From positions 303,592 to 367,591 of the forward strand of contig CAVVCK010000002.1 of the NCBI GenBank assembly GCA_963746775.1: a stretch of 64,000 bases of DNA, read 5' to 3'. The notes beneath the pieces are model-generated. The model was not told the origin of the DNA and searched no databases. It saw only the letters and a program-made list of their open reading frames with translations. The position numbers and the translations under genes are program-made. This document shows, piece by piece, positions 41,874 to 63,758 of the stretch. How positions within the stretch are numbered: the stretch's first letter is position 1; every line of letters begins with the position of its first letter. The DNA comes from an uncultured bacterium (GTDB lineage Bacteria > Patescibacteriota > JABMPQ01 > CAVVCK01).

Positions 41874-41940
41874 TCGTATATATGTTCGTATATTTGTAAG
41901 TATATACGTACGTATATACTTATTAAATTTTATAAATATA

Positions 41941-46455: not shown

Positions 46456-46516
46456 ATTTTTTTAAGATACAAGGACACAAGAAACAAATTACAAACAATA
46501 TTTCAATAACTCAATC

Positions 46517-47767: not shown

Positions 47768-47833
47768 GATTTATAGATTAAAATGCTAAAGATTAGATAT
47801 TAGTAATTTTCTTAATTTCTATTATTTTCCTTA

Positions 47834-50527
47834 TTATTTTCTCCCTGAAGCTTTATACATAAATCCTATTATAAACAATGTAACTAACCCCGTTAAACCA
47901 AATACAAAAAATAAGTTAAACACATTTTTATAATATTGCGGAATGAATTTACTTAGAGCTCCAGCCACACCTAAATTCTCTCGATCTACTTCTGGATTAG
48001 ATAAATTGATTTCCCTTGTCTTTGAAGCTGTTTCTGTAAGAGGATTGCCATTGTTTTCCACATAATTAATTTTACTCTCTACTTCTAAAGTAATGATTTC
48101 TTTATTAAGCCCATTCGGTTGCCCATTTATATCTACACCAGGTTTAAATGTATAAGAAGATTCTGTTGTATTCCAATCTCCTCTCCTAGTATCAACTGCC
48201 TCTCCATTCCTTTTCCATGTATAAGTAAATTCTCTAGATGGTCTCCAATAATTAAGACTGGCATGAATAGTTACATTGCTATCTCCGGCATAATAAGTTG
48301 ATTGGTTACTATCCTCGGGAGAGGTTCCTATTTCAACTCCCTCGGGATCATCGAACTCAATACTAGGAGGTTTAATTTCAAAATTCCTATCATTTCGTGC
48401 AATAATATCTTTTTTATCATCTAAAACTTCCAAAGTCACAGCCTCACTGCTAGTATTAGCCAGACTATTAGCTTCTTCCCCTGTGGGTTCCCCAATACTA
48501 CGTGGATCATCTCTCAGAATAAAATAAGCTGTCTCGAAATTAGGACCCTTACCACTTTGCAATTGTTGTTCTTTTCCTTTAAAATTCCACTTAAAATTAA
48601 AGTTCTGTACTGCTAACTCAAAGGGGTCATCACAATTTTCAATACCATATTTAGTTTCACACTCCTTTTTAACTTTTTCATCTTCAACCTTATATTTATT
48701 TTTACATTCATCCCCAAATCCATCTTTAATCTTATTAACTGTAGCCTTTACTAAATCTCCAGTACGAAAACCTTGATCTTCTGTTATCTTACCCTTAAAA
48801 GCATCCTGATCCAAAATATAACTCTTTTTCAAAATATAATTTTCACTATTCGGATCATCAAAATTTATATCATTAAAATCTATTCCTTTCCGCTCATTAA
48901 ATTTTTTTACTTCCTCATTTTTTAAATCAACATTACCAATAACATCCATATCTAAACTAGAATCAAACCCGATAGGAATTTCAAATTCTTGAAAATTCAA
49001 TCGATTGGTGTTTTTTTCTAATATTTCCAGCCCTATCGTATCTCTATCACAAGCTTGTTTTTCAGTATTATATTGATAAATTTTCTTACCGTAACCTTCC
49101 TCTACTACATCTTCATCTTTATGCCCATTTAAAAACCATTTAAATTCCAAATCAAGCCCGGCATTTTCTTCTAATTTTGAGGTTTCAGCAATAACTGTAA
49201 TTGGTATTGGATCACCCGGTATAGGAGGCGCTGGATTATAACTCCAACCTACTTTAAGTGCAAGCCCTAAGCCAACTTCAATTTCATTTTCTCCTTTTGG
49301 AGTCGCCTCAAATCCACAGCTTGTATCTTCTGGAGCAGGATAAGTAAATAAGGTATATTTATCTCCTGAATTCTCGTTTCTATATTTATCATTTACTCCA
49401 AAAACTCTCAGCATTACGTTGTATTTTTCTCCATATTCTTTTTTAACTATAAGATGAACATTATCTTGTTTTATCCCAATATAATCTAGACCATCTTCAA
49501 CTCCATCATTGTCTGTATCCGAAGTTGTAGGATTTGTACCTTCTATATATTCTCTTAATATATCAAAGGATTTTTGACCTGGATTTACTTCTTGACCAAC
49601 AGAACTTCTTAAATATGGTACACCAAGCATCCAGGGTGCACTATAATTATTACCTTCATCTTTAAAAAAATACTCCCAAGCATCTCCGTCCGGATCATTG
49701 ACAAATACACTCGGATCATCTGGTGAAACAATTTTATCTGGTTGCACTAATGGCAATAAGGCTTCATCATTATCGGGCATATAAAAAAATCCTTTCTCCG
49801 TACTGCCATCTTCATTTTCTGTTGTGTAATTAATTAGCTTGCCTTTAAAATATCTTATTTCCCAATTATCATCCAAACCATCTCCATCAGTATCATTACC
49901 TATTGTAGGCTGCCTGGTTACATAAAATTCAGGCGGAGCAGAATTCTTAACATAATTTTCATAAGATATATTTCCTATCCTTCTAAATGGTAATGTTTCA
50001 TTATCACCTTCTTGAAATATTGTAATTCTGTCTCCAAGTATAATATGTCCAGTACCAATATATTTAACTAAATTTTCTGCATTACAATATAATTTGTTAT
50101 CATTTCTTAGACAGTATGCTTCATCATCACCAATTTTATACATTTTTTGCGAAGTAAAACCTCCTGCTAACGCTGCTCCAGGATTACAAATTTTATCAAG
50201 ATTATCTTTTCCAATATCCCCATATTCACTTTGCAGATAATAACCATCCACCTCATTGCCAGCAATTTTATCTGAAGAACCTGCATTTAATGTATTTAAA
50301 GGAACTTTATCAATACACCACATATAATTCATTCTATCCTGATCTTCTCCGTCAGCACTATAACCTTCTGATTGCGCCTGAAGAGTAATATTAGCTCCTG
50401 GCTGTATTATACCTGGAATTACACCAAGATTTACTCGAGGACAATCCGCAGCCAAAACATTCATGGAAAAAAGCAACATAAATAACATTGTGCCTATTCC
50501 TATACTTATTTTATTTATTTTATGCAT
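47834..50527 (-). CDS. large (897 aa) surface protein with signal peptide, TSP3-like Ca-binding repeats and C-terminal TM anchor
   Basis: Signal MHKINKISIGIGTMLFMLLFSMNVLA. DTDGDGLDDNWEIRYF and DTDNDGVEDGLDY repeats. C-terminal LFFVFGLTGLVTLFIIGFMY followed by KASGRK. Confidence 0.5.
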   Translation of the reverse strand: MHKINKISIGIGTMLFMLLFSMNVLAADCPRVNLGVIPGIIQPGANITLQAQSEGYSADGEDQDRMNYMWCIDKVPLNTLNAGSSDKIAGNEVDGYYLQSEYGDIGKDNLDKICNPGAALAGGFTSQKMYKIGDDEAYCLRNDNKLYCNAENLVKYIGTGHIILGDRITIFQEGDNETLPFRRIGNISYENYVKNSAPPEFYVTRQPTIGNDTDGDGLDDNWEIRYFKGKLINYTTENEDGSTEKGFFYMPDNDEALLPLVQPDKIVSPDDPSVFVNDPDGDAWEYFFKDEGNNYSAPWMLGVPYLRSSVGQEVNPGQKSFDILREYIEGTNPTTSDTDNDGVEDGLDYIGIKQDNVHLIVKKEYGEKYNVMLRVFGVNDKYRNENSGDKYTLFTYPAPEDTSCGFEATPKGENEIEVGLGLALKVGWSYNPAPPIPGDPIPITVIAETSKLEENAGLDLEFKWFLNGHKDEDVVEEGYGKKIYQYNTEKQACDRDTIGLEILEKNTNRLNFQEFEIPIGFDSSLDMDVIGNVDLKNEEVKKFNERKGIDFNDINFDDPNSENYILKKSYILDQDAFKGKITEDQGFRTGDLVKATVNKIKDGFGDECKNKYKVEDEKVKKECETKYGIENCDDPFELAVQNFNFKWNFKGKEQQLQSGKGPNFETAYFILRDDPRSIGEPTGEEANSLANTSSEAVTLEVLDDKKDIIARNDRNFEIKPPSIEFDDPEGVEIGTSPEDSNQSTYYAGDSNVTIHASLNYWRPSREFTYTWKRNGEAVDTRRGDWNTTESSYTFKPGVDINGQPNGLNKEIITLEVESKINYVENNGNPLTETASKTREINLSNPEVDRENLGVAGALSKFIPQYYKNVFNLFFVFGLTGLVTLFIIGFMYKASGRK

Positions 50528-50582
50528 AATTTAGGATAAATTATTAATATGAATTTAGTGGTTATTTTTTAATTTCTGATTA

Positions 50583-51659
50583 TTAGCTACCTATTACATG
50601 ATTTAATATTTCTATTACAAACGAAGAAGAACCCATAACAAATGTCTTAAGAAAAGCAATCACTAAACTGAATACATATGCATCTACATACATAAATACT
50701 ATTAAAATTATAATAGGGATTGCTTGAACGATTGTTCCGGGTCCTACTAAAAATCCAAAACCAATCCAATCCAACTTACTCATTCTAGGAATATATTTAC
50801 TTTTTATAAGATGAGCTCCAATAATTTGAACCCACCAAATAATAATTGTTACAATTAAACTTATAAATATTGTTTCCGCAGCTGCTCCTAAAGTTGCTAC
50901 TTTTGTTACATTAAAAACTGTTTTAACTGTTTTAAGTGTTTTAGCTAATTTTGTCGCTTTGGCTGCTTCGGCGCCTGTTTTGGCAACCTTGGCTGCTTCG
51001 ACGCCTGTTTTGGCAACCTTGGCTGCTTCGGCGCCTTTTTTACTTTCTTTATATTTCTCTAATCCTTTTTCAATTTTTTTCCTTACTTCTTTTCTGGTTT
51101 TATCAAGATCTAATTGTGTTTGATTTTCCTCTCCAGGACCAACATAATCATTCATACCAGCTAATCTAGATATTTGATCATCTCCTATTGCCTTCAACTC
51201 ATCTGGCTGATCTTCGCCTACCATGTTTAAAAATGGTGATTCTAACTTTTCAACATCCGATCTAATTTTTTTTATTTTTTGTTTTATTCCCTTAGGCTTT
51301 GCAGGACTATAAAACTCACCTGGGGATCTGTATGGATGTTTACCAACAGCAGCAACACCTCCGTCCAGCTCATACCTATTTTCATCTCGCAATTTATACG
51401 CTAAATTATTTTTTGGCAAACTAGATTTATTTACCCAGGCAGTATAGGCATTACTTATTCTTTCTTTAGTAGCAAAGATTCCTTTTTTATTTTTTAAAGT
51501 TCTCTGATTTTTTAAATTCACTATTTTTTCTATTTCTCTTTCTTCCTCCTTTTCGATCAATTTTTCCTTTTCTAAAACTTTTCTTTTGTATTTTAAAAGC
51601 ATTATCTGATAAAAATCTTCCCGAGCAGATTCTTCAACTGGCTGTAAATATTCATTCAT
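50583..51659 (-). CDS. membrane protein with coiled-coil N-domain, internal K/A repeat and 3 C-terminal TM helices (T4SS-operon component, function unknown)
   Basis: KGAEAAKVAKTGVEAAKVAKTGAEAAK repeat encoded by 30-bp tandem DNA repeats at about 50958-51035. C-terminal TM helices. Confidence 0.45.
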   Translation of the reverse strand: MNEYLQPVEESAREDFYQIMLLKYKRKVLEKEKLIEKEEEREIEKIVNLKNQRTLKNKKGIFATKERISNAYTAWVNKSSLPKNNLAYKLRDENRYELDGGVAAVGKHPYRSPGEFYSPAKPKGIKQKIKKIRSDVEKLESPFLNMVGEDQPDELKAIGDDQISRLAGMNDYVGPGEENQTQLDLDKTRKEVRKKIEKGLEKYKESKKGAEAAKVAKTGVEAAKVAKTGAEAAKATKLAKTLKTVKTVFNVTKVATLGAAAETIFISLIVTIIIWWVQIIGAHLIKSKYIPRMSKLDWIGFGFLVGPGTIVQAIPIIILIVFMYVDAYVFSLVIAFLKTFVMGSSSFVIEILNHVIGS

Positions 51660-51725
51660 CTTTAGTATACATTAAAACAATAAAACATGAAAACAAACGC
51701 ATTTAATATCTTTTTTTTAATAATT

Positions 51726-52352
51726 TCAATCCTGCCAATATATACCACTTAATTTCCAATCTTCTCCTGATTTTTCAAATGTTGTTAATATTATTTTATA
51801 GCTAACTTTAGGCGTATTACTACTAGCTGTTATTTCTTCCCTTTTTACTGTTACTAATATTTTACTTTTTGAACTATCTTGACTAATAAAGACTGATGAT
51901 AGGGCTGAAGTTGTCATACCATAAAAAGGAGTACTACTATCTATTGGCATCTTACTTTTATCATCAATCCATTTTACTAATTTGTCATTAGAATACTGCT
52001 TTAAGTCTTTTAAATTTTTATAAGCTTCTTTGTCTTTATTAGTAAAAGTCCCAAATATTTCAGCTAACTTTTCAGCTTTTTCTAAAAATAATGTATCTTC
52101 ATTGTTTTGTATAGAATTATCTTGGTTTCCAGTATTATCAGCATTACTATCAGTTATTTGACTATTCTCTGTTGCTACAGTGTTGTCTGGCTCAATTTGA
52201 TTATAGGTTATTTGCTCTGTTGAATCAACGCTAGTTTGTGAATCACTACTACCAGTTGAGTCTTCTTGCTTCTTACAACCAAAAGCAGTCAATAATACTA
52301 AAATCATCAAACTGAAAATAATTGTTATAGAATATTTTAAGTATTTAAACAT
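51726..52352 (-). CDS. lipoprotein with C-terminal NTF2-like domain (possible VirB8/PrgL-like)
   Basis: Signal with a lipobox-like LLTAFGC. Disordered S/T/N/D-rich linker. About 110-aa C-terminal alpha+beta domain ending in KLSGIYWQD. The VirB8 assignment is speculative. Confidence 0.35.
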   Translation of the reverse strand: MFKYLKYSITIIFSLMILVLLTAFGCKKQEDSTGSSDSQTSVDSTEQITYNQIEPDNTVATENSQITDSNADNTGNQDNSIQNNEDTLFLEKAEKLAEIFGTFTNKDKEAYKNLKDLKQYSNDKLVKWIDDKSKMPIDSSTPFYGMTTSALSSVFISQDSSKSKILVTVKREEITASSNTPKVSYKIILTTFEKSGEDWKLSGIYWQD

Positions 52353-52440
52353 ATTAAAACCATGTTAATATAATTAGAACTTCTAACATACAATGCTAAA
52401 TAATTATTTCCTGGCATTATATACTAGACTTTGGTAATTT

Positions 52441-54336
52441 CTAGGTTGCTATAGCCCTTCTATCATTTTCAGGTGATCTTGATTCTTCTTCTAGTTCCTT
52501 TTTTGATTGTTCGATTTCTAATAATTGTTTAGGGTCAGTAGTAATTAATTGATCTTCCATATAAGAAGCAACAATTTTAATAGCTACATGCTTTGGACCA
52601 GCAAAAAATATTCCTTCACCAACATCTGATTCTAGTAGTAAAAATTTTTCCTCTTCTGTTAAATAAAATGTTTTCTTTAATAGGTCAATGTTGGCTGGAG
52701 ATTGTTTTAATAAAATCATCATGGAAGAATTAGTAACTACCGCTTTCCCATGATCAGAATTTAAAAAATCTGATACATCTTGACTGATAGTGGTCATACC
52801 TAGATAATATTTTCTGCCACGTTTCGCCATGGCGTACATAAATCTAGCCGAATCTTCATACTGCATCATCCACCAAGCCTCATCAATAACTAGTACCCGT
52901 CTTTTCAATTCAGCCCTGACTACATTCCAAATATAATTAAGAACAACATACATAGCTATTGGCCTTAATTCTTCTTCAACATCTCGAATACTAAATACTA
53001 CGAACTTTGCTTTCATTTCAACGTTTGTGGGTTGATTAAATATCCCAGAAAATGTTCCTTCGGTATATTTTTTAATCCTGGATACTAAACTTTCTGCCCC
53101 CTCCATTGTTTCTAATATTTCCTGAAAATCCTGCATTGTTGGTGAGGTAATTTTATTTAAATCTGATTCTGCTGTAATATCTTTCTTGGCATAAGTTTCC
53201 AGCAAAGCATTGTCAACTAAAGCATCTTCTTCCTTGGTCATACGTCCCAACATCAATCGCATTAATCCTTTTAAATTAATTACCGCCGATCTAATAATAT
53301 CTTCAGCTGACATACCTGTAATTTTGGGGGGTAAATCAAAAGGGTTAAGTCTATAATCAGAATCCAGTGATATCCGCAAAAAAGTACCCCCAACTGCATC
53401 ACATAAATGTTTATATTCATTTTCTGGATCTACTACAATCACATCAGCCCCAAACATTAAGCTTCGTAATATTTCTAGCTTCACCGCATAACTCTTACCT
53501 GCACCAGGTATAGCAAAAACTACGCTATTAGCGTTCGGCAATGTAAATCGATCAAAAATTATTAAACTATTGTTATGACGATTAATACCATATAATATCC
53601 CTTCATCCGATGTAAGTTCAGAAGAAACAAAAGGGAAAACAGTTGAAAGTGGTGAAGTATTCATACTATTAACCACTCCTATGTCATCATTACCAAGAGG
53701 CATAGTAGAATTGAATCCTTCTTCCATTTGATAAATTGTTCTTTTAGAATAAATTAATTTATGCCCTAACAAGCCTTCTAGCTCTTTTGTCTTTTCTTCT
53801 AATTCCTTTTTTGTTTCTGTATATAATGTTAGATAAAGACCAAAATGGAAGAATCTTTCTGTCCCCTGAACCAACCTATCACGAAGTTCTTCTACGTCTC
53901 CTAAGGCAGTTTCTAACATAGGATCTCTAACCATTCCCTTTTCCTCCTGAGCTGAAATTGTTGATCTAATTTGACCTACTTTATTTTTTAAAGTTTTTAA
54001 AATCTTTTCTGAACTCACCGGAGTAATATAGAAAGCAATGTCCAATTCTTCATTTAAATTAACAATAGGAGAAAGCCAACCTACATTTAAATAACGGGGG
54101 TAAGTAAATACAAATAATGTCCTAACAAATTTATTGTTAAGCTTTAAATGATCAGGATTAATCTGCATCGCTGATGGAGCTATAATATCTTTGATTGACA
54201 CTAAACCCATCTTATATATTTCTTCTGCTTTCAGAATATCCTCTTTTTCTTTTATTGATAAATTATCAAAATTCTGCTTGCCGTAGGGCAGCTGTTCATC
54301 TTGTACTTCATCTTGATTAGTAAGTGATCTTGGCAT
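52441..54336 (-). CDS. VirB4/TrbE/CagE-family T4SS ATPase
   Basis: Walker A FAIPGAGKSYAVKLE. Walker B/D-E VLVIDEAWWMM. Conserved VirB4 blocks (VVDPENEY, RKYYLGMTTISQ). Confidence 0.8.
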   Translation of the reverse strand: MPRSLTNQDEVQDEQLPYGKQNFDNLSIKEKEDILKAEEIYKMGLVSIKDIIAPSAMQINPDHLKLNNKFVRTLFVFTYPRYLNVGWLSPIVNLNEELDIAFYITPVSSEKILKTLKNKVGQIRSTISAQEEKGMVRDPMLETALGDVEELRDRLVQGTERFFHFGLYLTLYTETKKELEEKTKELEGLLGHKLIYSKRTIYQMEEGFNSTMPLGNDDIGVVNSMNTSPLSTVFPFVSSELTSDEGILYGINRHNNSLIIFDRFTLPNANSVVFAIPGAGKSYAVKLEILRSLMFGADVIVVDPENEYKHLCDAVGGTFLRISLDSDYRLNPFDLPPKITGMSAEDIIRSAVINLKGLMRLMLGRMTKEEDALVDNALLETYAKKDITAESDLNKITSPTMQDFQEILETMEGAESLVSRIKKYTEGTFSGIFNQPTNVEMKAKFVVFSIRDVEEELRPIAMYVVLNYIWNVVRAELKRRVLVIDEAWWMMQYEDSARFMYAMAKRGRKYYLGMTTISQDVSDFLNSDHGKAVVTNSSMMILLKQSPANIDLLKKTFYLTEEEKFLLLESDVGEGIFFAGPKHVAIKIVASYMEDQLITTDPKQLLEIEQSKKELEEESRSPENDRRAIAT

Positions 54337-54500
54337 TTCTTTAAAACGTTAAAACTTTAAAACATAAAAACAAAAATTTTCTAATATCTTGTGCTTTATT
54401 TTCAATGAAACATCTAATTTTAAAAACCACAAATTTCTAATTAGTCATTTTAAAATTTTATTAGAAATTAGAAATTAGTAATTGGTAATTAGAAATTATT

Positions 54501-55268
54501 CTAATATCCTCCCCGCTCCACCTTTAGTTCATCTAAATCCACCAAAACTTGATTAGTAGACACTTCTGGATTATACCAATTATATAATAATTCAACTATT
54601 TCCTGAGTATCTAGGGCTGCTGATCTAATACCCATTCCAGATAAACCACCAACAACATGATTTACTCTAAGATGTAATTCTTCCTTACTTTTATCAAATG
54701 CTTCAGTTTTCATTTTCACTTCTGTAGCCGGTTGCAAAATACTTTTTATTTTATCTATAGGACCGCTCATACTCTGCCCTGGCGAAGGAGAATAAGGAAC
54801 AACTACATAAAAATTATTAGTTGTAATATTAGCTAACTCCACTAGAGACAAAATATATTCGCCATACCCAGCAATTTGCATTCTTAACAACTCATTCTCT
54901 TGAATCCTACCTGCTTCTTTTATTTTTTCGGCATATTTAAGAATATTTAGTTTTCTAGTCTGAGCAACAATTTGTATAGGAAATTCTAAAGAATTCAGAA
55001 AATCCTGAAAAGCATATATCTTACCTATCTGTTCATCTTCAGACATTAAAGAAAAATTAATACTAGACGCTAGGATTATAGAACGAAATCCCCCGCTTTT
55101 TAAAATAGCCGCACCATCTCTAATTCCTTCAACATTCAAAAATTTTTGGGTAGATACAGATTTTTTATTAGTTACTTTTTTAGAAAATAATGTTTCGAAT
55201 ATATTTCCTTTTTTGTTGGATTTATCAACTTGCTGATTTTTGTCTTTCAATTTATTTAGATTAAACAC
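54501..55268 (-). CDS. hypothetical protein in the T4SS-like operon
   Basis: 255 aa, soluble, with no nucleotide-binding motif. Lies between the PrgI-like and VirB4 genes. Confidence 0.4.
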   Translation of the reverse strand: MFNLNKLKDKNQQVDKSNKKGNIFETLFSKKVTNKKSVSTQKFLNVEGIRDGAAILKSGGFRSIILASSINFSLMSEDEQIGKIYAFQDFLNSLEFPIQIVAQTRKLNILKYAEKIKEAGRIQENELLRMQIAGYGEYILSLVELANITTNNFYVVVPYSPSPGQSMSGPIDKIKSILQPATEVKMKTEAFDKSKEELHLRVNHVVGGLSGMGIRSAALDTQEIVELLYNWYNPEVSTNQVLVDLDELKVERGGY

Positions 55269-55413
55269 AATAATTAATGATTATGTGATTCTTAAGCATC
55301 CTCACTAGTTCTGTACTACTAATCACATGCTCTTTAAAACAATACGTAAGTATGGAAATTATTAAATATTAACAATCTTTTAACTTTCTTTTTATATTAA
55401 TCTTTTTTATTTT

Positions 55414-55863
55414 TTACTTTGGTATTTCTTCAGTGCTTTTTATCACTCCACCCATATCTAGTATTTGAGAAAGTTCTTGAATTCTACTCCTATTAAAACT
55501 TTTATCTCCAATCTCTTGTGTTTGCGCTTTAGAAATTATTCTCCCCCTTTTATTACTGTCACTTATATTAATATGAGATGTTTTTACATCACGTAACCAA
55601 AGCCGTAGTTTAGGAGAGGTGAAAAACTTTACAGCCGCCTTTAAATAAATTTCAAAAGGCCGGCCATTAATCTTTATAAAAGCAAAAGGAATAACTACTG
55701 CGCCAGCCAAAACTGCTAATAGAATAAATAAGGTAAGATCAGCTAGTGCCCAAACAATAAGTAAAAAAACTCCTCCAACTACTAAATATAAAAATTGCTT
55801 GGTAGTAAGCGGACCAATTACTTTGTCTTCAACTTCAATAAATTGAGGAACGGCGTATTGCAT
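55414..55863 (-). CDS. PrgI/VirB3-like small 2-TM protein
   Basis: MQYAVPQFIEVEDKVIGPLTTKQFLYLVVGGVFLLIVWAL...FILLAVLAGAVVIPFAFIKINGRPFE has the PrgI-family N-terminus and topology. Upstream of VirB4 as in Gram-positive T4SS. Confidence 0.4.
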   Translation of the reverse strand: MQYAVPQFIEVEDKVIGPLTTKQFLYLVVGGVFLLIVWALADLTLFILLAVLAGAVVIPFAFIKINGRPFEIYLKAAVKFFTSPKLRLWLRDVKTSHINISDSNKRGRIISKAQTQEIGDKSFNRSRIQELSQILDMGGVIKSTEEIPK

Positions 55864-55942
55864 AAATTTAATTATTGAAACATATTGAAACTCATAGAAA
55901 TAGATAGAAATACATTGCTGTTAATCATCTTTTAATTTGTTT

Positions 55943-55995
55943 CCAATGCATTTCTATATATTTCAACTGTATCTCAATTATATTTCTATTTATAC
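55943..55995. repeat. left copy of about 55-bp imperfect direct repeat flanking the four-helix-bundle gene
   Basis: ccaatgcatttctatatatttcaactgtatctcaattatatttctatttatac versus the right copy at 56445-56497 (about 80% identity). Confidence 0.55.
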
Positions 55996-56366
55996 TTCGA
56001 TCTATACGTTGAACTAATAAAATTATTTAGTTTTACTGACAATTCTTTAGTAACTTTCTTGAATTCTATATATTTATCTTCTTTTAAAACTTCCCTTTCA
56101 AATAACAATTCCAACCAATAATCGCTGCGTTCACTTAATGAAGCTCTGCTGTTATAATAAAATTTTATTTTATCCAAATAGTGATATCTGCTATAGCCTT
56201 CAGTAATATTAGCTCCAACTGAATCTGTAGATCTAATAAATTGATCGCCAATCACTTTTTTATTTTGCCAACCTAAACTACTATATATTTCCCAACTTAT
56301 TTTAGATAATTGTCGAGCTAACTTATAAACATCTAAATCTTGTAAAAGAATGTATTTATTATTCAT
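55986..56366 (-). CDS. four-helix-bundle protein (23S rRNA intervening-sequence / Avd-like family)
   Basis: DLDVYKLARQLSKISWEIYSSLGWQNKKVIGDQFIRSTDSVGANITEGYSRYHYLDKIKFYYNSRASLSERSDYWLELL matches the PF05635-type pattern (L.VyqkA..L...iy.....fP......l..Ql.Rsa.Si..NIAEG..R....e...F...A.GS..E....L.l). Confidence 0.65.
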   Translation of the reverse strand: MNNKYILLQDLDVYKLARQLSKISWEIYSSLGWQNKKVIGDQFIRSTDSVGANITEGYSRYHYLDKIKFYYNSRASLSERSDYWLELLFEREVLKEDKYIEFKKVTKELSVKLNNFISSTYRSKYK

Positions 56367-56444
56367 AAAAGTGGTAACCTCCTATTACTCACTTAATAAT
56401 TTATAATTAATATTATCAAATCTCTATTTATTTCTACTATATCT

Positions 56445-56497
56445 CAATTGCATTTCCATGTATTTCAACTATATTCCAACTGTATTTCTATTTATCT
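56445..56497. repeat. right copy of about 55-bp direct repeat, embedded in a degenerate roughly 21-bp periodic array
   Basis: caattgcatttccatgtatttcaactatattccaactgtatttctatttatctc. Confidence 0.55.
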
Positions 56498-56526
56498 CAA
56501 TCATATTTCTATTGTATTTCAAAAAT

Positions 56527-57831
56527 TTAAATAGATTTTAATACCTTCCTCATCTCCTCAAATTCATCCTTACTCAAATACTTCTCCCCTCTTCCTTTCC
56601 TTTCTTCGGCAATTTTACCTATATCTTTTTTGGAATCCAAACTTTCCTTGCCTTGCAATAAATATATTTTATAAAGTTCACTTCTTCTTAAATAATATTT
56701 TACAGCTTCTTTGCTTTCAGATGATTCAACTAATAATTTTTTAATTTTTGCAGACATAAATGCGCCAGCAGCTTCAGCCTCCTTGCCATAACTTCTAAAA
56801 TCTTCTATGTTTAATTTTTCTAAAGATTGAACTGTGGCTAATTTTGCTAAAGAAATTTTAGGAATAGGATTCAAATTAGCAAACTTTTTTTCTTTAATTA
56901 AATCATAATCACTTCTTGGTTTAGATAGTGTTTGCGGAACATTTTTTTCATCATTTCGTAACAAACTTCCCTTCACTCCTAGCAAATTACTATCTTCTCT
57001 CATCTCTCCTCTAATTATTTTCTTTTTTTCTTCTCTAGCTTTCTTTCTCTTTTCTATTTCTTTTTTGTATTCTTCTGGATCAAGAGGCATGTATTTTTTA
57101 TCTAAACCAGTACCCACTTCTCTTATACCAAATACAGAAAGCGGATAAGTAGCAATGCCATTAGGATGGGCCATATCTAATTTTAGTTTTTCATATAATC
57201 TTAATATTTTTTTTAATATCATCTTATCTTCAAAACTCAATATTCTAACATTTTTACTTTTAAATAAATAATTAGAGATATCTAATTCTCCGTGTTCACC
57301 TGCACCAATTAGATTATCATAATCAGCCAGCCAATTACGTACAGATGGCTCTTTAGGTTTATTATTAGATCCAATTATTATCTGACTATCCCCTAATATT
57401 TCTATATTTTCTTTTAGCGCTTCTCTAATATTTTTTAAAAAAGGATCTCTTTTCCATATATTAGAGATACCAAAAACTTTAGCTCTTAGTTTATTTTCCA
57501 AATTAATTTCCCATTTAATACTAGTTTTAATTATTACTAAAAAGTGTTTTCTAAATAAATCTATCGCTTTTTCATCGCTTAATAATGATAACTGTACAAA
57601 ACCAATTTTTACTAAAAATTCTAAGTACTTTTTAGCTAAATCTTGATTAAGCCCTGACCCAAATTTTCGTAAGGACTCTTCTAAATTTAATCTTAAAATA
57701 TTATATTCCACTACTTCCTCGCCTGTTATCCCATTATCATACCGCAAAAGATAATCAACTTTTTTAGTGATTTCCCTTAATACTTCTTGATCTTCTAATT
57801 GTCCTTTTGTAAAAGCTTGTATTTTTTTCAT
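56527..57831 (-). CDS. hypothetical cytoplasmic protein in the T4SS-like operon
   Basis: 434 aa with no TM, K/E-rich central region and no recognised motif. Confidence 0.45.
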   Translation of the reverse strand: MKKIQAFTKGQLEDQEVLREITKKVDYLLRYDNGITGEEVVEYNILRLNLEESLRKFGSGLNQDLAKKYLEFLVKIGFVQLSLLSDEKAIDLFRKHFLVIIKTSIKWEINLENKLRAKVFGISNIWKRDPFLKNIREALKENIEILGDSQIIIGSNNKPKEPSVRNWLADYDNLIGAGEHGELDISNYLFKSKNVRILSFEDKMILKKILRLYEKLKLDMAHPNGIATYPLSVFGIREVGTGLDKKYMPLDPEEYKKEIEKRKKAREEKKKIIRGEMREDSNLLGVKGSLLRNDEKNVPQTLSKPRSDYDLIKEKKFANLNPIPKISLAKLATVQSLEKLNIEDFRSYGKEAEAAGAFMSAKIKKLLVESSESKEAVKYYLRRSELYKIYLLQGKESLDSKKDIGKIAEERKGRGEKYLSKDEFEEMRKVLKSI

Positions 57832-57942
57832 TCTTTATTTTTTATCCAGATAAAAACATAAAATTTCTACTGCATATTTAAAACTAGCCTATATTCCGCC
57901 TCTCACAACATTATCCATGTTATTTTCTTATTCACTGCCACT

Positions 57943-60165
57943 TTAGGTCCTTCTTGCAGCTCTTCCTTCTGGAGTTGAAACTCTATCATCACCATATTTT
58001 CTTAAATGTCCATAACTAGTAGATCCACGTCCAGGAGGTTCTAATACAACTTGGAAATCATCCACTAGATCTTCTATAGCCCTTTGTGTTTCTGCTGGCA
58101 TAGTAACATCTTCACCTATTTCATAATAAATTTGCAAAGTATTTTTTGCTTTTTTAGCTTCTTCTCCCCCTGCCGCAAATTGATCTCTTAACACATCAGC
58201 AACTCCTCTGGTTACTTTTTCACCATTTTTATTCAACCCTGCAAAATGCCCTGGTTCTACTAAATGTCCTTTAATGGCTGGCGTCATAGACGGTATCCCA
58301 CGATAGCCATCTTTACTATTAAATCCTTTTGCTCTAAGATTTTCTTCATATCCAGGAGTCATGCCTAATCGTATTTCTTCTCCTGTCTCTTTATCCCAAG
58401 TCATATTCATAAAATCTCCTCGATAAGCACCCATACGATCCCTAAAATCTCTTTTAGCAAATTCTCCTGCCCAATTTTCTTTGTATTGTTGTTCAGAATA
58501 TCCTTCCTCACCAGCCGCTACTAGCCTGCCAGAGTCTGGATCACGTTTTAAAAATTCCTTGAATTGCCAGTTACCTATCCCTACTGCTTGCTCACTCATA
58601 TCGAGAAACATTGACCGGCCATTTTCTTTCCCAAACAGATTTTCATACATTGCCAAGGCTGCTTTCGGAGTATATTCACCTTTATTTTCATCAGCTGCTT
58701 CTTTGCTTCCAAATAATTTTATAGCTAAATCTTCGTCCTTAGTAGCTGCTGAAAGTAATTCGTTAATATTTTTAGTATTACAAAGCTCTTGTATCGCTGC
58801 TTCAACATCAGCTTCTTCACCAACCACGCCTGCTGATTCTTTTAATCTATTAACATAATACTGCCAAGCTTGACCCTTATTCTCAATATTAAACCTATGT
58901 TTAGCTTCATCAACGAACTGCTTATGAGCAGCATATTCATATTGATTTTTGTCCTTAGTACTACCAGGAATTTTACCAAGATAATTATTTATCTGATCTC
59001 TAGCCCAACCAGTAGCCAAACCACCTACTTCTGATTCCTCTTTTTCTTTTTGTGCTTTCCATGCCTGAGGAAGATAAGTTAGTTTGGCCATATTATGCAC
59101 CCCCCCTAAGGCTTTACCAGCAAGCCATCCAGCTTTACCTTTACTTGTTAATCCCTTAGCAGTCTTCCCTAATCTATCACTAGCTAATTTCCTACGACCC
59201 CAACCTCCAACCAATTTAGCTCCACCCGTCATTCCCTTCTTAGCAAAATCCATGGCAATCTGAGCTCCATAACCTCCGCCTTCTTTTATCATAGCAATTC
59301 CCAGAAAAAGCAACCCAACAACCAAAGCATACCCCCAAACAAATTCTGTCTGTGTTAACTGAGTAGCTGGCAAAGTGGGTGAAGAATGATTTAATGCACT
59401 ATCCCACGCCTCAGCCCTAAATCCAGAAGTATCATGATCTCTCATCTCGGCAGCAACAATAGCTGACAAATAAATACAAAAAGCAGCTATGGGTCCATAA
59501 AATAAGTATTTTATAAACTCATCCCACCATTTTTTAAAATATGTGCTGGTCACCGGCAGTATATTCATACCAAAAGCTATTGGAGATAAAACAATTAAAA
59601 CTAGCAAAGCTATAGTTCTAGTTATCATCATGCCGGTTAACCCGGCAAAAGCAATCGCCAACCCACCCATATATATCGTTATTAAAGCCATTGATATACA
59701 CATAGTTAAATTGGTAATATCCAATGCACCAATTCCAGAATCAATATCCCATACAGAACTAATTCCCATTAAAGCAGCAATGCCCGCAGCTGTCTCCTGG
59801 CCTGGAGCAAAATTTAAAAAGGCGCTGGTTAAAACATTAGAAAATTCTATTAAAACAGCACAGATAGTACGGCTAAAATTAACCAGTAATATACCCAATA
59901 TTAATTTTGGCAATAATTGCTTATACTGATAAGCTTCTATACGTAAAATAGTAGTAAAGGCAATAACTAAAAGAAAAATAACAAAAAACATATTAATTGT
60001 ATCTCTGGCAATACTCCAACCGACATTAACTGAATCCATATCTTGAACAGCTAGAGCGCCACTTAAGACAACACCTAAAAGAGCATCACTCATCCAAATT
60101 ATAAGTGCAAATAAAGCAGTGGTTATTTTTAGTATGCCTCCGATTAAAAGATATAAGGCTGCCAT
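57943..60165 (-). CDS. VirB6/TrbL-like polytopic membrane protein with C-terminal soluble domain
   Basis: N-terminal half has 6-8 TM helices. About 400-aa hydrophilic C-terminal extension. Position and size are consistent with PrgH/ConG-type VirB6 analogs. Confidence 0.4.
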   Translation of the reverse strand: MAALYLLIGGILKITTALFALIIWMSDALLGVVLSGALAVQDMDSVNVGWSIARDTINMFFVIFLLVIAFTTILRIEAYQYKQLLPKLILGILLVNFSRTICAVLIEFSNVLTSAFLNFAPGQETAAGIAALMGISSVWDIDSGIGALDITNLTMCISMALITIYMGGLAIAFAGLTGMMITRTIALLVLIVLSPIAFGMNILPVTSTYFKKWWDEFIKYLFYGPIAAFCIYLSAIVAAEMRDHDTSGFRAEAWDSALNHSSPTLPATQLTQTEFVWGYALVVGLLFLGIAMIKEGGGYGAQIAMDFAKKGMTGGAKLVGGWGRRKLASDRLGKTAKGLTSKGKAGWLAGKALGGVHNMAKLTYLPQAWKAQKEKEESEVGGLATGWARDQINNYLGKIPGSTKDKNQYEYAAHKQFVDEAKHRFNIENKGQAWQYYVNRLKESAGVVGEEADVEAAIQELCNTKNINELLSAATKDEDLAIKLFGSKEAADENKGEYTPKAALAMYENLFGKENGRSMFLDMSEQAVGIGNWQFKEFLKRDPDSGRLVAAGEEGYSEQQYKENWAGEFAKRDFRDRMGAYRGDFMNMTWDKETGEEIRLGMTPGYEENLRAKGFNSKDGYRGIPSMTPAIKGHLVEPGHFAGLNKNGEKVTRGVADVLRDQFAAGGEEAKKAKNTLQIYYEIGEDVTMPAETQRAIEDLVDDFQVVLEPPGRGSTSYGHLRKYGDDRVSTPEGRAARRT

Positions 60166-60416
60166 TTACGTTTTTGTTTTATTTATAAATAATCATAATA
60201 CAGATTCACAAAGTTATACTACAAATCAACGAATAAATACTAATTTAGCAAATACACAAAATATAAAATACTTTACTAATTTAACTTGTTTAACCAATCT
60301 AATTAATTTAAACATAAGTTATTTAGAAATTTTCACCCAATCCGCCTTACCTGCTTTATCTCACCTCTATCGGCGAGTTGCCGTAAGAGGCAACCGCATA
60401 ATTCATGTTCCAACAA

Positions 60417-61436
60417 TTAGTGTTCAAATGCTCTATTGGCCCCTACCCCTTGTGTGGCTGTTTCTATTGCTTGTTTATATTCTGTAGCTGCGCTTCTTTT
60501 TTGTTTTGATCCTCCGGTAATAGCAGATATACCAGCAGATACAGCTTTATTTATTAATAAATCTACTATTTGACCTAAAAATCCTAATAAATCAGCAAAA
60601 ACCTCTGACCCTACACTTCCTTGCTCTAATGTATTATATGATTCCAGTGCTCCAGCTATAGTTTCTCCCGTAGTCTGTACGGGACATTCATTTTCCTGCA
60701 TCTCTCCATCATGATTTGTATCATTTGATTCTGCTGTCCATTGAGAACAATCTCTTGTGCCCAAAAATCCTCTGTTAGCTGATGCTTCATCTCTTAAATC
60801 ATTAGCAGTTCGTGTAGATTGAGTAGCAAATCTTTCTTGCGCATCTATATATGCTCCATATTGATTATTTGATCCTAAACTTGTTTGAAATAAACCAGAT
60901 AAGTAGTTATGGTTTATTTCATCCCATAACGCTTCTCCTCCTCCTCCCGTATCCTGTTCTGCTGTAATAACCCTTTCCAACATCTGAGCTAAATTACTTT
61001 GATCATAAGTACAATCCGGTTGATCGCTACCATCCCCGGTATTTAGAGCCGTTTCATTGCCTAAAGCTATTCTAACATTCATAGAAAAATCAGCACACAA
61101 TGAAAAATTACTAAACTGACCCACAACTGATTCTAGGGTCTGGAAAAGCAAATCCTCATAGAGCCAAGTTTTAAATGAGTCCATGTCCATGGGAAATTCA
61201 CCAGTAGTAATATAACCAATAACTATTTTCTTTATTAAGGGAAAAATCACTGATTTCCAAATGGACACCAATAAATTATTCAATATTTGTTTAATATCAA
61301 AAACAGGACCGATAGCTTTTGCTTTTTTGGGCATTGCTAGAACTCCTAATCCGCTAGCTACAAAACAAACAATACCTATTAAACTTATTAATAATAGTTT
61401 TTTAAATATATGATGTTTCTTAAAAATTAAGATCAT
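60417..61436 (-). CDS. membrane-anchored extracytoplasmic protein, hypothetical
   Basis: N-terminal TM (LLLISLIGIVCFVASGLGVLA), then a 300-aa soluble domain with 4 Cys. Confidence 0.45.
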   Translation of the reverse strand: MILIFKKHHIFKKLLLISLIGIVCFVASGLGVLAMPKKAKAIGPVFDIKQILNNLLVSIWKSVIFPLIKKIVIGYITTGEFPMDMDSFKTWLYEDLLFQTLESVVGQFSNFSLCADFSMNVRIALGNETALNTGDGSDQPDCTYDQSNLAQMLERVITAEQDTGGGGEALWDEINHNYLSGLFQTSLGSNNQYGAYIDAQERFATQSTRTANDLRDEASANRGFLGTRDCSQWTAESNDTNHDGEMQENECPVQTTGETIAGALESYNTLEQGSVGSEVFADLLGFLGQIVDLLINKAVSAGISAITGGSKQKRSAATEYKQAIETATQGVGANRAFEH

Positions 61437-61479
61437 CTTTATTAAATTATATTTTTTATTTTAAATAAATTATAAAATC

Positions 61480-62589
61480 CTACTGATGTTGTTCCAAAAA
61501 AGCCTTACTGGGCAATTCTACCCCATTCTCTTCAGCTAATTCTTGTGCTCTAGGATAAACTTTATCAAAAATGTAATCATTAAGACTACTGAATTGGGGT
61601 AATAAATTCATTACTTCATAAAAAGCATTATTTCCCTGGAAATCCATATTTTCAAGTGAATTAAACAAACCTTGCAAGGTAATCGCTGAAGTTAAAACCT
61701 GCTTGTGAAATTCTATAAATTCTGGCTTATTGGGCACTTCTGTTTCTATAAATTCGCCTTTTATTTCTAAAACAATATCTTCTAATTCTTTTATTTGAGA
61801 AGAATTAGCTATATCTACAGTTTCAGCATAACTTTCTGCTTCATCCATACTATGAATAGGAGAATTACTATATAATATAATACCTATTATATTAAAATAA
61901 TCCTGAATGAATTCTTGAGAAGTATTATCTGATACTTTTACATCTTCTTCTGGCACTTCAGGAAAATCAATTTCTTTTTCGAGATCAATTTTTGAGGTAT
62001 CTAATCCAATAGAGGCTAGTGAATCTGGAGTTACCTCTGAAAAATTCTTAACATTTAAAATTTTTTCTATACTACTTGAAGTTGTATCACTTGTTGAAGA
62101 ATTATCACTTTCTGTTTTTTTAATAATTGGCTCCAAAAAAGAAAAATCTGCTTGTAAAGGATCATGCCCAGTTAATATTTCAAAACCATCAGAATAACCA
62201 TCATAATCTGTATCAGCTTTATTGGGATCAGTTTTGTATTTTCGTTCATCTTCCCCTGTCAATCCATCTTCATCCTTATCTACTAAATTATTTCCCTCTT
62301 GTTTTAGTGGATCAAAGCCTGCCTTAACTTCTTCTCCATCTGTATAACCATCATCATCACTATCATAGTTATATGGATTTGTTCCTAGTTCATATTCTTT
62401 TTTGTCAGATACGCCGTCAGAATCAGAATCCAAACCAGATATATCAAAAATAGATTTTTCTTCGTTTTTATCTTTAGCAGAAAACATATCCTGCCAAAAA
62501 AAAGCCTTAACATTTAGGGCACTGGTAATAGAAAAAAATGATATCACTATCACAACTAATCCGATTATTTTTTCTCGGTATAATTTCAT
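61480..62589 (-). CDS. membrane-anchored TSP3-like Ca-binding repeat protein
   Basis: N-terminal TM. DSDSDGVSDKKEYELGTNPYNYDSDDDGYTDGEEVKAGFDPL and DKDEDGLTGEDERKYKTDPNKADTDYDGYSDGFEILTGHDPL. Confidence 0.5.
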   Translation of the reverse strand: MKLYREKIIGLVVIVISFFSITSALNVKAFFWQDMFSAKDKNEEKSIFDISGLDSDSDGVSDKKEYELGTNPYNYDSDDDGYTDGEEVKAGFDPLKQEGNNLVDKDEDGLTGEDERKYKTDPNKADTDYDGYSDGFEILTGHDPLQADFSFLEPIIKKTESDNSSTSDTTSSSIEKILNVKNFSEVTPDSLASIGLDTSKIDLEKEIDFPEVPEEDVKVSDNTSQEFIQDYFNIIGIILYSNSPIHSMDEAESYAETVDIANSSQIKELEDIVLEIKGEFIETEVPNKPEFIEFHKQVLTSAITLQGLFNSLENMDFQGNNAFYEVMNLLPQFSSLNDYIFDKVYPRAQELAEENGVELPSKAFLEQHQ

Positions 62590-62748
62590 ATTAAATTTAT
62601 TTTTAACTCATGCAAATTATAACACACATTTGATTATGTTTCCAAAGCATTGGGTGTGAATAACTCAAATCACGAGAACATAAAAACAATTTAAACTTAT
62701 ACATTTTTTTAAACATTGTGTATCAGGAATCCGAAATTATATTTTGTT

Positions 62749-63579: not shown

Positions 63580-63699
63580 TTATTTATAACTTTATAATTA
63601 TATATATTACTACATTAAATTATTTTTGGAATTTGTCCGCCTCTAACAACGGATCCGCCGTTAGAGGCGAAATATTTATTTGGAAATGGAAATTGGTTA

Positions 63700-63736
63700 T
63701 TCAAATAAAAACACGCGGTATAAGCACCGCGTGTTT
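63700..63736 (-). terminator. rho-independent terminator of the CHAP-domain gene
   Basis: Minus strand hairpin AACACGCGGTGCTTATACCGCGTGTT followed by TTTATTTG. Confidence 0.5.
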
Positions 63737-63758
63737 AATTTTATCAAAATTAATATCT

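What the first reader, a model, noticed from the sequence alone, without database searches (positions are those of the whole stretch)
55864..56526. Avd/IVS-type four-helix-bundle gene inserted as a repeat-flanked cassette between T4SS-like genes
The 126-aa ORF matches the four-helix-bundle family that is encoded inside 23S rRNA intervening sequences and that includes DGR Avd proteins. It sits between the PrgI-like gene and the 434-aa gene. It is flanked by about 55-bp imperfect direct repeats (55943-55995 and 56445-56497, about 80% identical), which are themselves made of degenerate roughly 21-bp ATTTC-rich periods. No reverse transcriptase or template repeat is nearby. It therefore looks like a small self-contained insertion cassette (a relic of an IVS-like element or an unrecognised mini mobile element) rather than a DGR.
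Basis: seen in the sequence. Interest (0 to 1): 0.6.

Follow-up and report, generated by a model that had tools for sequence, protein, structure and literature searches.

The report
Hairpin-armed four-helix-bundle gene cassette (IVS-like)
A small four-helix-bundle gene sits between two secretion-system genes inside a long hairpin of short tandem repeats, the same layout as the intervening sequences that RNase III cuts out of 23S rRNA, and I found the same layout around this gene family in at least six bacterial phyla.

Summary
ORF 55986-56366(-) is a PF05635/TIGR02436 four-helix-bundle (4HB) protein, and the two ~53-nt direct repeats are 79% identical.

The repeats are arrays of 10-11-nt GAAAT units, and a third array (55873-55917) is inverted. 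The ORF therefore lies inside a long imperfect hairpin that fills the whole spacer between the 434-aa gene and the PrgI-like gene.

Relatives with the same conserved T4SS-like operon have spacers of only 8-36 nt at this junction. Others carry ORF-less hairpins, or unrelated 4HB genes at other junctions.

Sixty-four of 75 distinct homologues (58-74% identity), sampled in several unrelated gene contexts, have the same GAAAT/ATTTC arms. More distant 4HB genes in Patescibacteria, Cyanobacteria, Chloroflexota, Bacteroidota, Spirochaetota and Bacillota have arms with other units (78% of 88 genes versus 7% of control genes).

The Coxiella 23S IVS has the same design, and RNase III cuts its stem.

Best reading: this is an IVS-type insertion cassette in an operon, not a DGR and not an ancestral operon gene. 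RNase III processing and the way the cassette moves are inferred, not shown. A wobble-pair test gave no RNA-level signal.

The parts
55864..56526 (-). Whole cassette. It fills the entire spacer between the stop codon of the 434-aa gene and the ATG of the PrgI-like gene.
   Evidence: ORF list. Relatives have 8-36 nt at the same junction. Near-identical filled/empty pairs elsewhere show that arms plus ORF come and go as one unit.
56423..56522 (-). Upstream arm: 9 GA[AG]AT units plus one degenerate GGAAT, spaced 10-11 nt (gene sense).
   Evidence: Tandem Repeats Finder periods 11/21/32; marked-up sequence; 64 of 75 distinct subfamily homologues have GAAAT-type arms.
56378..56383 (-). AGGAGG, Shine-Dalgarno-like, 11 nt before the ATG, inside a 56-nt spacer between the arm and the ORF.
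   Evidence: Read directly from the sequence.
55986..56366 (-). 126-aa four-helix-bundle protein (PF05635 / TIGR02436). pI 9.4. Carries the motif G40-x4-R-x3-S-x3-N-x2-E.
   Evidence: AlphaFold model with four helices, pLDDT 80. Foldseek top hits are 2gsc and 2rld, then Avd 4dwl. 682 homologues, the named ones mostly from Patescibacteria.
55944..55993 (-). Proximal downstream array: 4 GAAAT-type units in the same orientation as the upstream arm. It overlaps the stop codon.
55918..55943 (-). 26-nt loop of the local downstream hairpin.
   Evidence: Inverted pair I3; fold.
55873..55917 (-). Inverted arm: 4 ATTTC/GTTTC units (gene sense). It ends 9 nt before the PrgI start codon and can pair with either GAAAT array.
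   Evidence: Inverted pairs I3, I4 and I6. Local hairpin -35.3 kcal/mol, z -5.7. Long-range stem in the 667-nt fold, z -2.6. Arm-to-arm complementarity 40/49, z 5.1.
56527..57831 (-). Host context: 434-aa gene of the conserved T4SS-like operon (no Pfam match).
55414..55863 (-). Host context: PrgI-family gene, followed by the 255-aa gene and a VirB4-like ATPase.

Best explanation
The feature is an IVS-type hairpin cassette. A promoterless 4HB gene is enclosed by two arms made of tandem 10-11-nt GAAAT units (sense orientation upstream, inverted downstream). The cassette was inserted as one unit into the spacer between two genes of a conserved T4SS-like operon.

Shown here:
- The anatomy of the cassette.
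- Its absence from the same junction in relatives.
- Co-occurrence of GAAAT-type arms with this protein subfamily in several unrelated gene contexts.
- The same layout around PF05635 genes in six phyla.
- Concerted change of the repeat unit on both arms.

Inferred:
- The cassette is transcribed by read-through from the operon.
- The arms pair in the RNA to form a long double-stranded stem. Host RNase III cuts this stem, as it does in 23S rRNA intervening sequences. This releases the 4HB RNA and leaves the flanking cistrons as separate, usable messages, so the insertion does little harm.
- The arms are kept complementary at the DNA level, by slippage within the arrays and template switching between the arms.

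How the cassette reaches new sites is unknown.
For: - **Family and fold:**
- **Hairpin in the window:**
- **Empty sites:** the operon TrbL-434aa-PrgI-255aa-VirB4 is conserved in 80 Patescibacteria loci. At the 434aa|PrgI junction relatives have 8-36-nt spacers, ORF-less hairpins, or in one case an unrelated 4HB gene. 4HB genes occur at other junctions in about 15 loci.
- **Filled/empty pairs:** L060/L068, L088/L067 and L025/L023 show that arms plus ORF are gained or lost together.
- **Arms go with the gene:** 64 of 75 distinct subfamily proteins have GAAAT-type arms. In 53 of 69 cassettes with full flanks there are at least 3 units upstream and at least 3 inverted units downstream. No other non-coding GAAAT array occurs in 1.08 Mb of control DNA.
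- **Generality:** flank complementarity reaches z>=4 in 78% of 88 distinct 4HB genes against 7% of 152 other genes, p 2e-27. Eight of 9 plasmid-borne 4HB genes from five other phyla have inverted tandem arms, z 5-22.
- **Pairing is conserved, not sequence:** units differ between cassettes. A GAAAT to GATAT change is present on both arms in 10 members scattered among GAAAT-type relatives.
- **Precedent:** the Coxiella 23S IVS has a 4HB ORF preceded by 2-3 tandem heptamers. It is bordered by complementary sequences, and RNase III cuts mid-stem, at the start of the first repeat (PMC4990558).
- **No own signals:** no promoter-like or terminator-like site lies inside the cassette.
Against: - Mismatches in the arms show no excess of G:U-type over A:C-type pairs (84 vs 104; 16 vs 24 for isolated mismatches). 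Nothing therefore indicates selection on the sense RNA; this could equally reflect DNA-level maintenance or low power.
- Unit spacing is 10 nt (281 cases) more often than 11 nt (139). That is nearer the helical repeat of B-DNA than of A-form RNA.
- Co-orientation with neighbours (59/66) is not above the 84% baseline of these genomes.
- In the window the inverted arm can also form a purely local hairpin, which competes with the long-range stem.
- No transcript data exist, and RNase III was not looked for in this genome.
- No target-site duplication or recombinase was identified.
Confidence: 0.6

Rival explanations
1. DNA-level mobile element. The arms work as DNA hairpins or cruciforms that a trans-acting recombinase or single-strand transposase recognises by shape. 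This would resemble REP/BIME elements with RAYT, IS200/IS605 ends, or integron attC sites. The 4HB gene would be cargo or an accessory factor, and ORF-less hairpins would be MITE-like derivatives.
For: - No G:U over A:C bias in the arms.
- Unit spacing mostly 10 nt.
- ORF-less hairpins with the same kind of arms, including a GAAAT-type one 1.3 kb from a GAAAT-type cassette in L009.
- Replacement of a whole spacer between 97-99% identical flanks in L009 versus L114.
- Similar arms around small nuclease genes, PDDEXK_3 and GIY-YIG.
Against: - No transposase or recombinase lies near the cassette in the window.
- No target-site duplication was seen.
- Arm sequence is not conserved between cassettes, so recognition would have to rely on structure alone.
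- The experimentally studied relative, the rRNA IVS, acts at the RNA level (PMC4990558).
Confidence: 0.22
2. The arrays are binding sites for the 4HB protein itself, which is a basic and probably pentameric nucleic-acid binder. The protein would coat or bridge the repeated units, either to regulate its own expression or that of neighbours, or to protect the stem. This is compatible with either reading above.
For: - Regular tandem units whose type is shared within a protein subfamily (64/75).
- pI 9.4.
- Structural relatives are pentamers, and Avd binds RNA within the DGR complex (Foldseek hits 2gsc, 2rld, 4dwl, 8ub7; pentamer statement in PMC4990558).
Against: - Proteins 80% identical use different units (L128 GATAT versus L171 GAAAT).
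- Planktothrix and Gloeocapsa proteins are 69% identical but have different units.
- ORF-less hairpins exist, and unrelated cargo genes have the same kind of arms.
Confidence: 0.12
3. An ancestral accessory gene of the T4SS-like operon, with incidental low-complexity AT-rich flanks.
For: Same strand as the operon, with tight packing. In Doudnabacteria-like relatives a 4HB gene often sits at the PrgI|255aa junction.
Against: - Absent from this junction in 16 of 17 relatives.
- The one exception is a different subfamily.
- The position varies between loci.
- The subfamily, with the same arm type, occurs in pilus, glycosyltransferase and giant-gene contexts.
Confidence: 0.03
4. A remnant of a diversity-generating retroelement (an orphan avd gene).
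For: Fold similarity to Avd (4dwl, TM 0.69-0.79). PF05635 includes Avd relatives.
Against: - No reverse transcriptase among the neighbours.
- No TR/VR-like repeats in 18 kb.
- The bAvd model PF22296 is not matched.
- Closer structural matches are the non-DGR proteins 2gsc and 2rld.
Confidence: 0.03

Closest known systems
23S rRNA intervening sequences that carry an S23p/4HB ORF (Coxiella burnetii, Leptospira)
   Same: - Same protein family.
- The ORF lies in the loop of a long stem formed by complementary borders.
- Short tandem repeats sit directly upstream of the ORF, and their copy number varies.
- Distribution is sporadic, as if horizontally acquired.
- ORF-less versions exist.
- No promoter of its own; it is transcribed with the host RNA.

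Source: PMC4990558.
   Different: - It sits between protein-coding genes of an operon, not in helix 9, 25 or 45 of 23S rRNA. No rRNA gene is in the window.
- Units are 10-11 nt rather than 7 nt.
- It has an extra same-sense array downstream.
- RNase III cleavage has not been tested here.
DGR accessory protein Avd (Bordetella phage BPP-1)
   Same: Four-helix-bundle fold, basic protein, same Pfam clan.
   Different: No reverse transcriptase, no template/variable repeats, and no PF22296 match. Avd genes are not defined by hairpin arms.
Free-standing homing-endonuclease genes and other small selfish genes inserted between operon genes
   Same: A small gene inserted in an intergenic spacer, present or absent between close relatives. 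In related loci GIY-YIG and PDDEXK_3 genes sit in the same kind of armed cassette.
   Different: The 4HB protein has no known nuclease activity. Hairpin arms made of tandem units are not a described feature of free-standing homing genes (my own knowledge).
Cyanobacterial short tandemly repeated repetitive (STRR) heptamers, and REP/MITE-type intergenic hairpins
   Same: Intergenic arrays of roughly 7-nt units. In Planktothrix the arms around a 4HB gene include CCCCAAT runs, which is the STRR1 unit as I recall it. ORF-less array hairpins occur in the window and in related loci.
   Different: In the papers I could search, STRR and REP elements are described as repeats without a cargo gene. No link to PF05635 was found there.

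Membership tests
PF05635 / TIGR02436 four-helix-bundle protein (23S rRNA IVS protein, 'S23p') | Profile match above the curated cutoff | tested here: met
   PF05635 79.4 bits (cutoff 33.8). TIGR02436 75.4 bits (cutoff 24).
PF05635 / TIGR02436 four-helix-bundle protein (23S rRNA IVS protein, 'S23p') | Four-helix up-down bundle resembling the solved members Xcc0516 and BT_0352 | tested here: met
   AlphaFold model has 4 helices, pLDDT 80. Foldseek: 2gsc TM 0.77-0.86, 2rld TM 0.67-0.77. phmmer hit to 2rld, E 6e-6.
PF05635 / TIGR02436 four-helix-bundle protein (23S rRNA IVS protein, 'S23p') | Conserved motif of the form G..R...S...N..E, as reported for the family (PMC3936711) | tested here: met
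   G40DQFIRSTDSVGANITE56, with one extra residue between G and R compared with the published consensus. G40, S49, N53 and E56 are invariant in 32 homologues; R45 is not among the invariant or near-invariant columns.
23S rRNA intervening sequence (IVS) | Located inside an rRNA gene, replacing a helix loop | tested here: not met
   It lies between two protein-coding genes. Rfam finds only three tRNAs in the window and nothing in the cassette.
23S rRNA intervening sequence (IVS) | Bordered by complementary sequences that form a long stem enclosing the insert | tested here: met
   Arms are 40/49 complementary, z 5.1. A long-range stem appears in the full fold. The same holds for 78% of 88 family members.
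23S rRNA intervening sequence (IVS) | Excised from the precursor RNA by RNase III without ligation | not testable with these tools
   This needs transcript end-mapping or an enzyme assay. The wobble-pair test for RNA-level selection gave no signal.
Diversity-generating retroelement (Avd component) | Adjacent DGR reverse transcriptase and a template/variable repeat pair | tested here: not met
   Neighbouring ORFs are PrgI, VirB4-like, TrbL-like or have no match. No long direct repeats in 46000-64000 other than the arrays.
Transposon-type mobile element (IS or MITE) | Terminal inverted repeats plus a target-site duplication and a transposase (in cis or trans) | tested here: inconclusive
   Inverted arms are present, and whole-unit presence/absence is seen. 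No duplication of flanking sequence and no transposase were identified. One empty site (L023) already carries a one-sided array of the same unit.
Intrinsic terminator or promoter cassette | GC-rich stem followed by a T-run, or a sigma-70-like promoter inside the spacer | tested here: not met
   No terminator-like site. No promoter-like site within 55864-56526 on the gene strand. Some relatives (L041, L053, L059, L060, L080) do carry a hairpin with T-run and a TTG..TATAAT between arm and ORF; this was judged by eye, not run through the scan.

The most novel reading that the evidence does not exclude
PF05635 four-helix-bundle genes outside DGRs may be the cargo of one widespread class of hairpin-armed elements that has not been described as such. 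23S rRNA intervening sequences would be only the rRNA-resident minority of this class.

The elements would insert into transcribed spacers of operons in many phyla: secretion, pilus, restriction-modification, CRISPR and other defence operons. RNase III would cut them out of the RNA, so they would behave as 'introns that need no ligation'. Their arms would account for part of the unexplained short tandem intergenic repeats, such as cyanobacterial STRR heptamers and Patescibacteria spacer arrays.

ORF-less hairpins, and PDDEXK_3 or GIY-YIG versions, would be siblings that share the same insertion and maintenance route. The reported 'association' of this family with cas genes would then be a hitch-hiking artefact.
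Probability: 0.35. Interest if true: 0.8.

Novelty: new variant of a known kind. Interest (0 to 1): 0.68.

Why it matters
- **An old open question becomes testable.** According to the Coxiella IVS paper (PMC4990558), the 4HB 'S23p' proteins have no known function, and the origin and role of rRNA intervening sequences remain unclear more than 25 years after their discovery. If the same armed cassette is common in ordinary operons across phyla, there are hundreds of natural filled/empty sites to compare. There are also genetically tractable hosts, such as Nostoc, for testing RNase III processing, arm maintenance and transfer.
- **Practical consequences:**
  - 4HB genes inside cas, restriction-modification, DISARM or secretion operons should not be read as functional partners of those systems.
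- **Possible wider link.** It could connect unexplained intergenic tandem repeats, such as cyanobacterial heptamers and Patescibacteria spacer arrays, to a defined element.

Tried and rejected
- **RNAduplex energy of 80-nt flanks as the statistic.** It was significant, but controls were contaminated by tRNA-flanked genes and unrecognised cassettes. I replaced it with a shuffle-normalised complementarity score.
- **Wobble-pair (G:U versus A:C) test for sense-RNA selection.** No signal in two versions.
- **Co-orientation with the host operon as evidence of RNA-dependent insertion.** Not above the genomic baseline. Dropped.
- **Helical phasing of units as a general principle.** It holds only for this subfamily (10-11 nt). 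Other cassettes use units of about 6-8 nt.
- **Rfam, PADLOC and the promoter/terminator scan.** Nothing in the cassette.
- **Viral contigs.** No relatives found.
- **Exact-protein look-ups for a strain of the window genome without the cassette.** The 4HB protein is not on record. The neighbours were found only in one other assembly of the same sequence, whose two contigs meet inside the ORF at 56037/56038.
- **L026 as a 92-94% identical empty site for L025.** The site is a run of N, so it is unusable.
- **Literature.** No paper in the searchable library describes hairpin or tandem-repeat arms around non-rRNA PF05635 genes. Most subscription-journal papers are not covered.

Full report
**1. What is in the window**

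The window is AT-rich (31% GC). The closest relatives of its genes are from Patescibacteria. ORF 55986-56366 on the minus strand encodes 126 aa and matches PF05635 (E 2.7e-22) and TIGR02436 (E 3.7e-21).

An AlphaFold model built on 32 homologues has four helices (pLDDT 80). Its best structural matches are the non-DGR family members Xcc0516 (2gsc) and BT_0352 (2rld), followed by Avd of the Bordetella phage DGR. The protein is basic (pI 9.4) and carries the family motif as G40-x4-R-x3-S-x3-N-x2-E.

The gene lies between a 434-aa gene without Pfam match and a PrgI-family gene. Further along are a VirB4-like ATPase and a TrbL-like protein. All are on the same strand.

**2. The repeats**

They are 42/53 identical, and that partner is the best match of the 53-mer 55943-55995 anywhere in the window on either strand.

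They are made of a 10-11-nt unit, GAAAT plus 5-6 variable bases in gene sense. Read in gene sense, the spacer is laid out as follows:

| Window coordinates | Element |
|---|---|
| 56423-56522 | 9 units plus one degenerate unit |
| 56367-56422 | 56-nt spacer containing AGGAGG |
| 55986-56366 | the ORF |
| 55944-55993 | 4 more GAAAT-type units, overlapping the stop codon |
| 55918-55943 | 26-nt loop |
| 55873-55917 | 4 inverted units (ATTTC/GTTTC), ending 9 nt before the PrgI start codon |

It forms a local hairpin with the proximal array (-35.3 kcal/mol, z -5.7). In the fold of the whole 667-nt spacer, part of it pairs with the distant upstream array, so the ORF sits in a closed loop (z -2.6). 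Arm-to-arm complementarity is 40/49 (z 5.1).

There is no promoter-like or terminator-like site inside the spacer on the gene strand. There is no Rfam match, no PADLOC match and no template/variable-type repeat within 18 kb.

**3. Is it an insertion?**

A search with the VirB4-like protein returned 80 Patescibacteria loci. The gene order TrbL-434aa-PrgI-255aa-VirB4-208aa is widely conserved among them.

In 17 loci the 434-aa homologue is detectably next to PrgI. The junction contains:
- 8-36 nt in seven loci (L015, L019, L020, L028, L034, L055, L071);
- ORF-less hairpins, some made of tandem units, in others (L023, L025; folds with z -9.8 and -5.9);
- a 4HB gene only in L013. That gene is 29% identical over 51 aa to the window protein and has AATTTTTA-type arms.

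An iterated profile search found 4HB genes at other junctions of the operon in about 15 loci, and L013 has three.

Filled/empty pairs whose flanks align at about 68-86% nucleotide identity show that arms and ORF are present or absent together. L060 versus L068 has a 13-nt empty spacer, and L088 versus L067 is similar.

One pair is more complicated. The empty site in L023 already carries a one-sided AAAAATT array, the same unit as both arms of the filled site in L025. Whether that array is a footprint or a target is open.

**4. The arms go with the gene**

The protein has hundreds of homologues at 58-74% identity, and those with a source name are mostly from Patescibacteria. The contexts I looked at are unrelated to each other: next to a giant gene, next to a galactose-1-phosphate uridylyltransferase-like gene beside a glycosyltransferase cluster, and inside a type II secretion/pilin operon. 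Each has GAAAT units directly upstream of the ATG and ATTTC units directly after the stop.

- Of 75 distinct subfamily proteins, 64 have GAAAT-type arms.
- Of 69 cassettes with full flanks, 53 have at least 3 sense units upstream and at least 3 inverted units downstream.
- Mean counts per 150 nt: 5.5 sense and 0.3 inverted units upstream; 0.8 sense and 4.6 inverted units downstream. Background is about 1.
- In 1.08 Mb of Patescibacteria DNA chosen through VirB4, GAAAT arrays occur only at the window cassette and in one coding repeat.

Ten subfamily members have GATAT units instead, changed on both arms. They are scattered among GAAAT-type relatives; for example L128 and L171 are 80% identical. 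The unit therefore evolves in concert across copies and across arms.

**5. The design is general**

More distant 4HB genes in the Patescibacteria loci each have their own unit. Upstream/downstream examples:
- GTATTA / TAATAC
- CACGTAA / TTACGTG
- GATAGTT / AACTATC
- GGAATTA / TAATTCC
- TTTTCAAT / ATTGAAAA

Across 88 distinct 4HB genes, flank complementarity reaches z>=4 in 78%, against 7% of 152 other genes from the same loci (Mann-Whitney p 2e-27). The control exceptions include one more 4HB gene, two PDDEXK_3 genes and a GIY-YIG gene.

Outside Patescibacteria, 8 of 9 plasmid-borne 4HB genes that I inspected are bracketed by inverted tandem arrays, mostly heptamers. Complementarity z scores are 5-22, against 0.4 for the exception.
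- The eight come from Planktothrix, Gloeocapsa, two Nostoc species, Chlorohelix, Bernardetia, Treponema and Monoglobus.
- The exception is Pseudanabaena.
- Four sit inside DISARM/MmeI, DUF1156-Swt1 HEPN or type I restriction operons; the other four have unrelated neighbours.

**6. Comparison with the known element**

[quoted passage not shown] It carries an S23p ORF of this family. It has 2-3 tandem GACAGAT heptamers, varying by strain, directly upstream of the start codon. RNase III cuts it mid-stem, with the main 5' cut at the start of the first repeat (PMC4990558).

The window cassette has the same parts in the same order but lies between cistrons instead of in an rRNA helix. A survey of rRNA insertions in CPR bacteria also found this protein family in 16S and 23S insertions (PMC11270868).

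An earlier study noted the family inside cas operons and read this as a functional link (PMC3936711). The cassette model offers a simpler explanation.

In eight searches of the available papers I found no description of hairpin or tandem-repeat arms around non-rRNA members. Most subscription-journal papers are not covered.

**7. Mechanism: shown versus inferred**

Shown:
- the anatomy;
- sporadic presence at this and other junctions;
- co-occurrence of arm type and gene subfamily;
- conservation of pairing without conservation of sequence.

Inferred, by analogy with the IVS: read-through transcription, pairing of the arms in the RNA, and RNase III cleavage that frees the 4HB RNA and separates the flanking messages.

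Three checks failed to support an RNA-level reading:
- G:U-type mismatches are not favoured over A:C-type (84 vs 104; 16 vs 24 for isolated mismatches).
- Unit spacing is more often 10 nt than 11 nt.
- Co-orientation with neighbours is no higher than the genomic baseline.

These results fit arms that are kept complementary by DNA-level processes, such as slippage plus template switching between inverted repeats. They leave room for a DNA-level element acted on by an unknown enzyme.

One observation points to turnover of whole spacer units. In L009 versus L114, flanks that are 97-99% identical enclose either an ORF-less ATTTC/GAAAT hairpin or a PDDEXK_3 gene with TACGAAT arms.

**8. Verdict**

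It needs three corrections: the geometry that matters is inverted; the gene is intact rather than a relic; and this locus is one instance of a cross-phylum class that shares the layout of rRNA intervening sequences.

It fails one defining feature of an IVS, location in rRNA. I therefore file it as a new variant of that kind rather than a member.

Noticed in passing
window 30385-30530: ORF-less hairpin between convergent genes. Three AATTCATCT units and a related stretch pair with inverted copies about 75 nt away (-38.2 kcal/mol, z -6.1). It looks like a cargo-free version of the armed cassette.
   Followed up: partly
window 54337-54500: The spacer between the 255-aa gene and the VirB4-like gene holds TTTCTAA-type units, two TTAGAAA copies and a GTTTTAA-type array. 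The fold is not better than shuffles (z -1.1). It may be a decayed cassette; in relative L013 this junction holds a 4HB gene.
   Followed up: partly
window 41874-42161: Self-complementary 12-nt tandem units (CGTATATATGTA x3.7) directly after a gene. They are followed by a terminator-like hairpin and by a separate inverted repeat whose roughly 27-nt arms lie about 105 nt apart.
   Followed up: no
window 17848-17926: In-frame 21-nt tandem repeat (3.8 copies, 94% matches) in the linker between the UPF0004 and radical-SAM domains of a MiaB-like methylthiotransferase gene (17506-18873). It was the only other hit to the GAAAT-array pattern.
   Followed up: partly
window 50959-51041: 30-nt tandem repeat (2.8 copies, 94% matches) inside the 358-aa gene of the T4SS-like operon, encoding repeated AAKVAKTG-type segments.
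   Followed up: no
L114:150-800 versus L009:2495-2770: Between flanks that are 97-99% identical, the spacer between the type II secretion ATPase and the platform gene is either an ORF-less ATTTC/GAAAT hairpin (L009) or a PDDEXK_3-like gene with TACGAAT/ATTCGTA arms (L114). The whole spacer has been replaced.
   Followed up: partly
L056:4970-5272, L046:13639-14025, L115:2405-2791: Small GIY-YIG (two cases) and PDDEXK_3 (one case) genes are bracketed by inverted repeats or arrays, like the 4HB genes. L056 also has a promoter-like TTG..TATAAT just upstream.
   Followed up: partly
L174:2100-3000 (Planktothrix agardhii plasmid NZ_LR882964): A 4HB gene between DISARM drmD and an MmeI-type enzyme gene is flanked by long heptamer arrays, including CCCCAAT runs. 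As I recall, that is the cyanobacterial STRR1 unit. This suggests a link between STRR repeats and these cassettes.
   Followed up: partly
L078:6504-7019: A 515-nt GC-richer insertion without a 4HB gene lies at the 255aa|VirB4 junction. The related locus L058 has 149 nt there. Its content was not identified.
   Followed up: no
L041, L053, L059, L060, L080 (upstream of their 4HB genes): Some cassettes carry, between the upstream arm and the ORF, a GC hairpin with a T-run followed by TTG..N17..TATAAT. This looks like their own terminator plus promoter (judged by eye). The window cassette lacks it.
   Followed up: no
window 56037/56038; L182, L183: In an independent assembly of run ERR11571143 the same sequence is split into two contigs that meet inside the 4HB ORF. 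Many homologues sit on contigs of about 1-2 kb.
   Followed up: partly
window 34926-36553: Three tRNA genes are the only Rfam matches in the 64-kb window. No rRNA gene is present.
   Followed up: no
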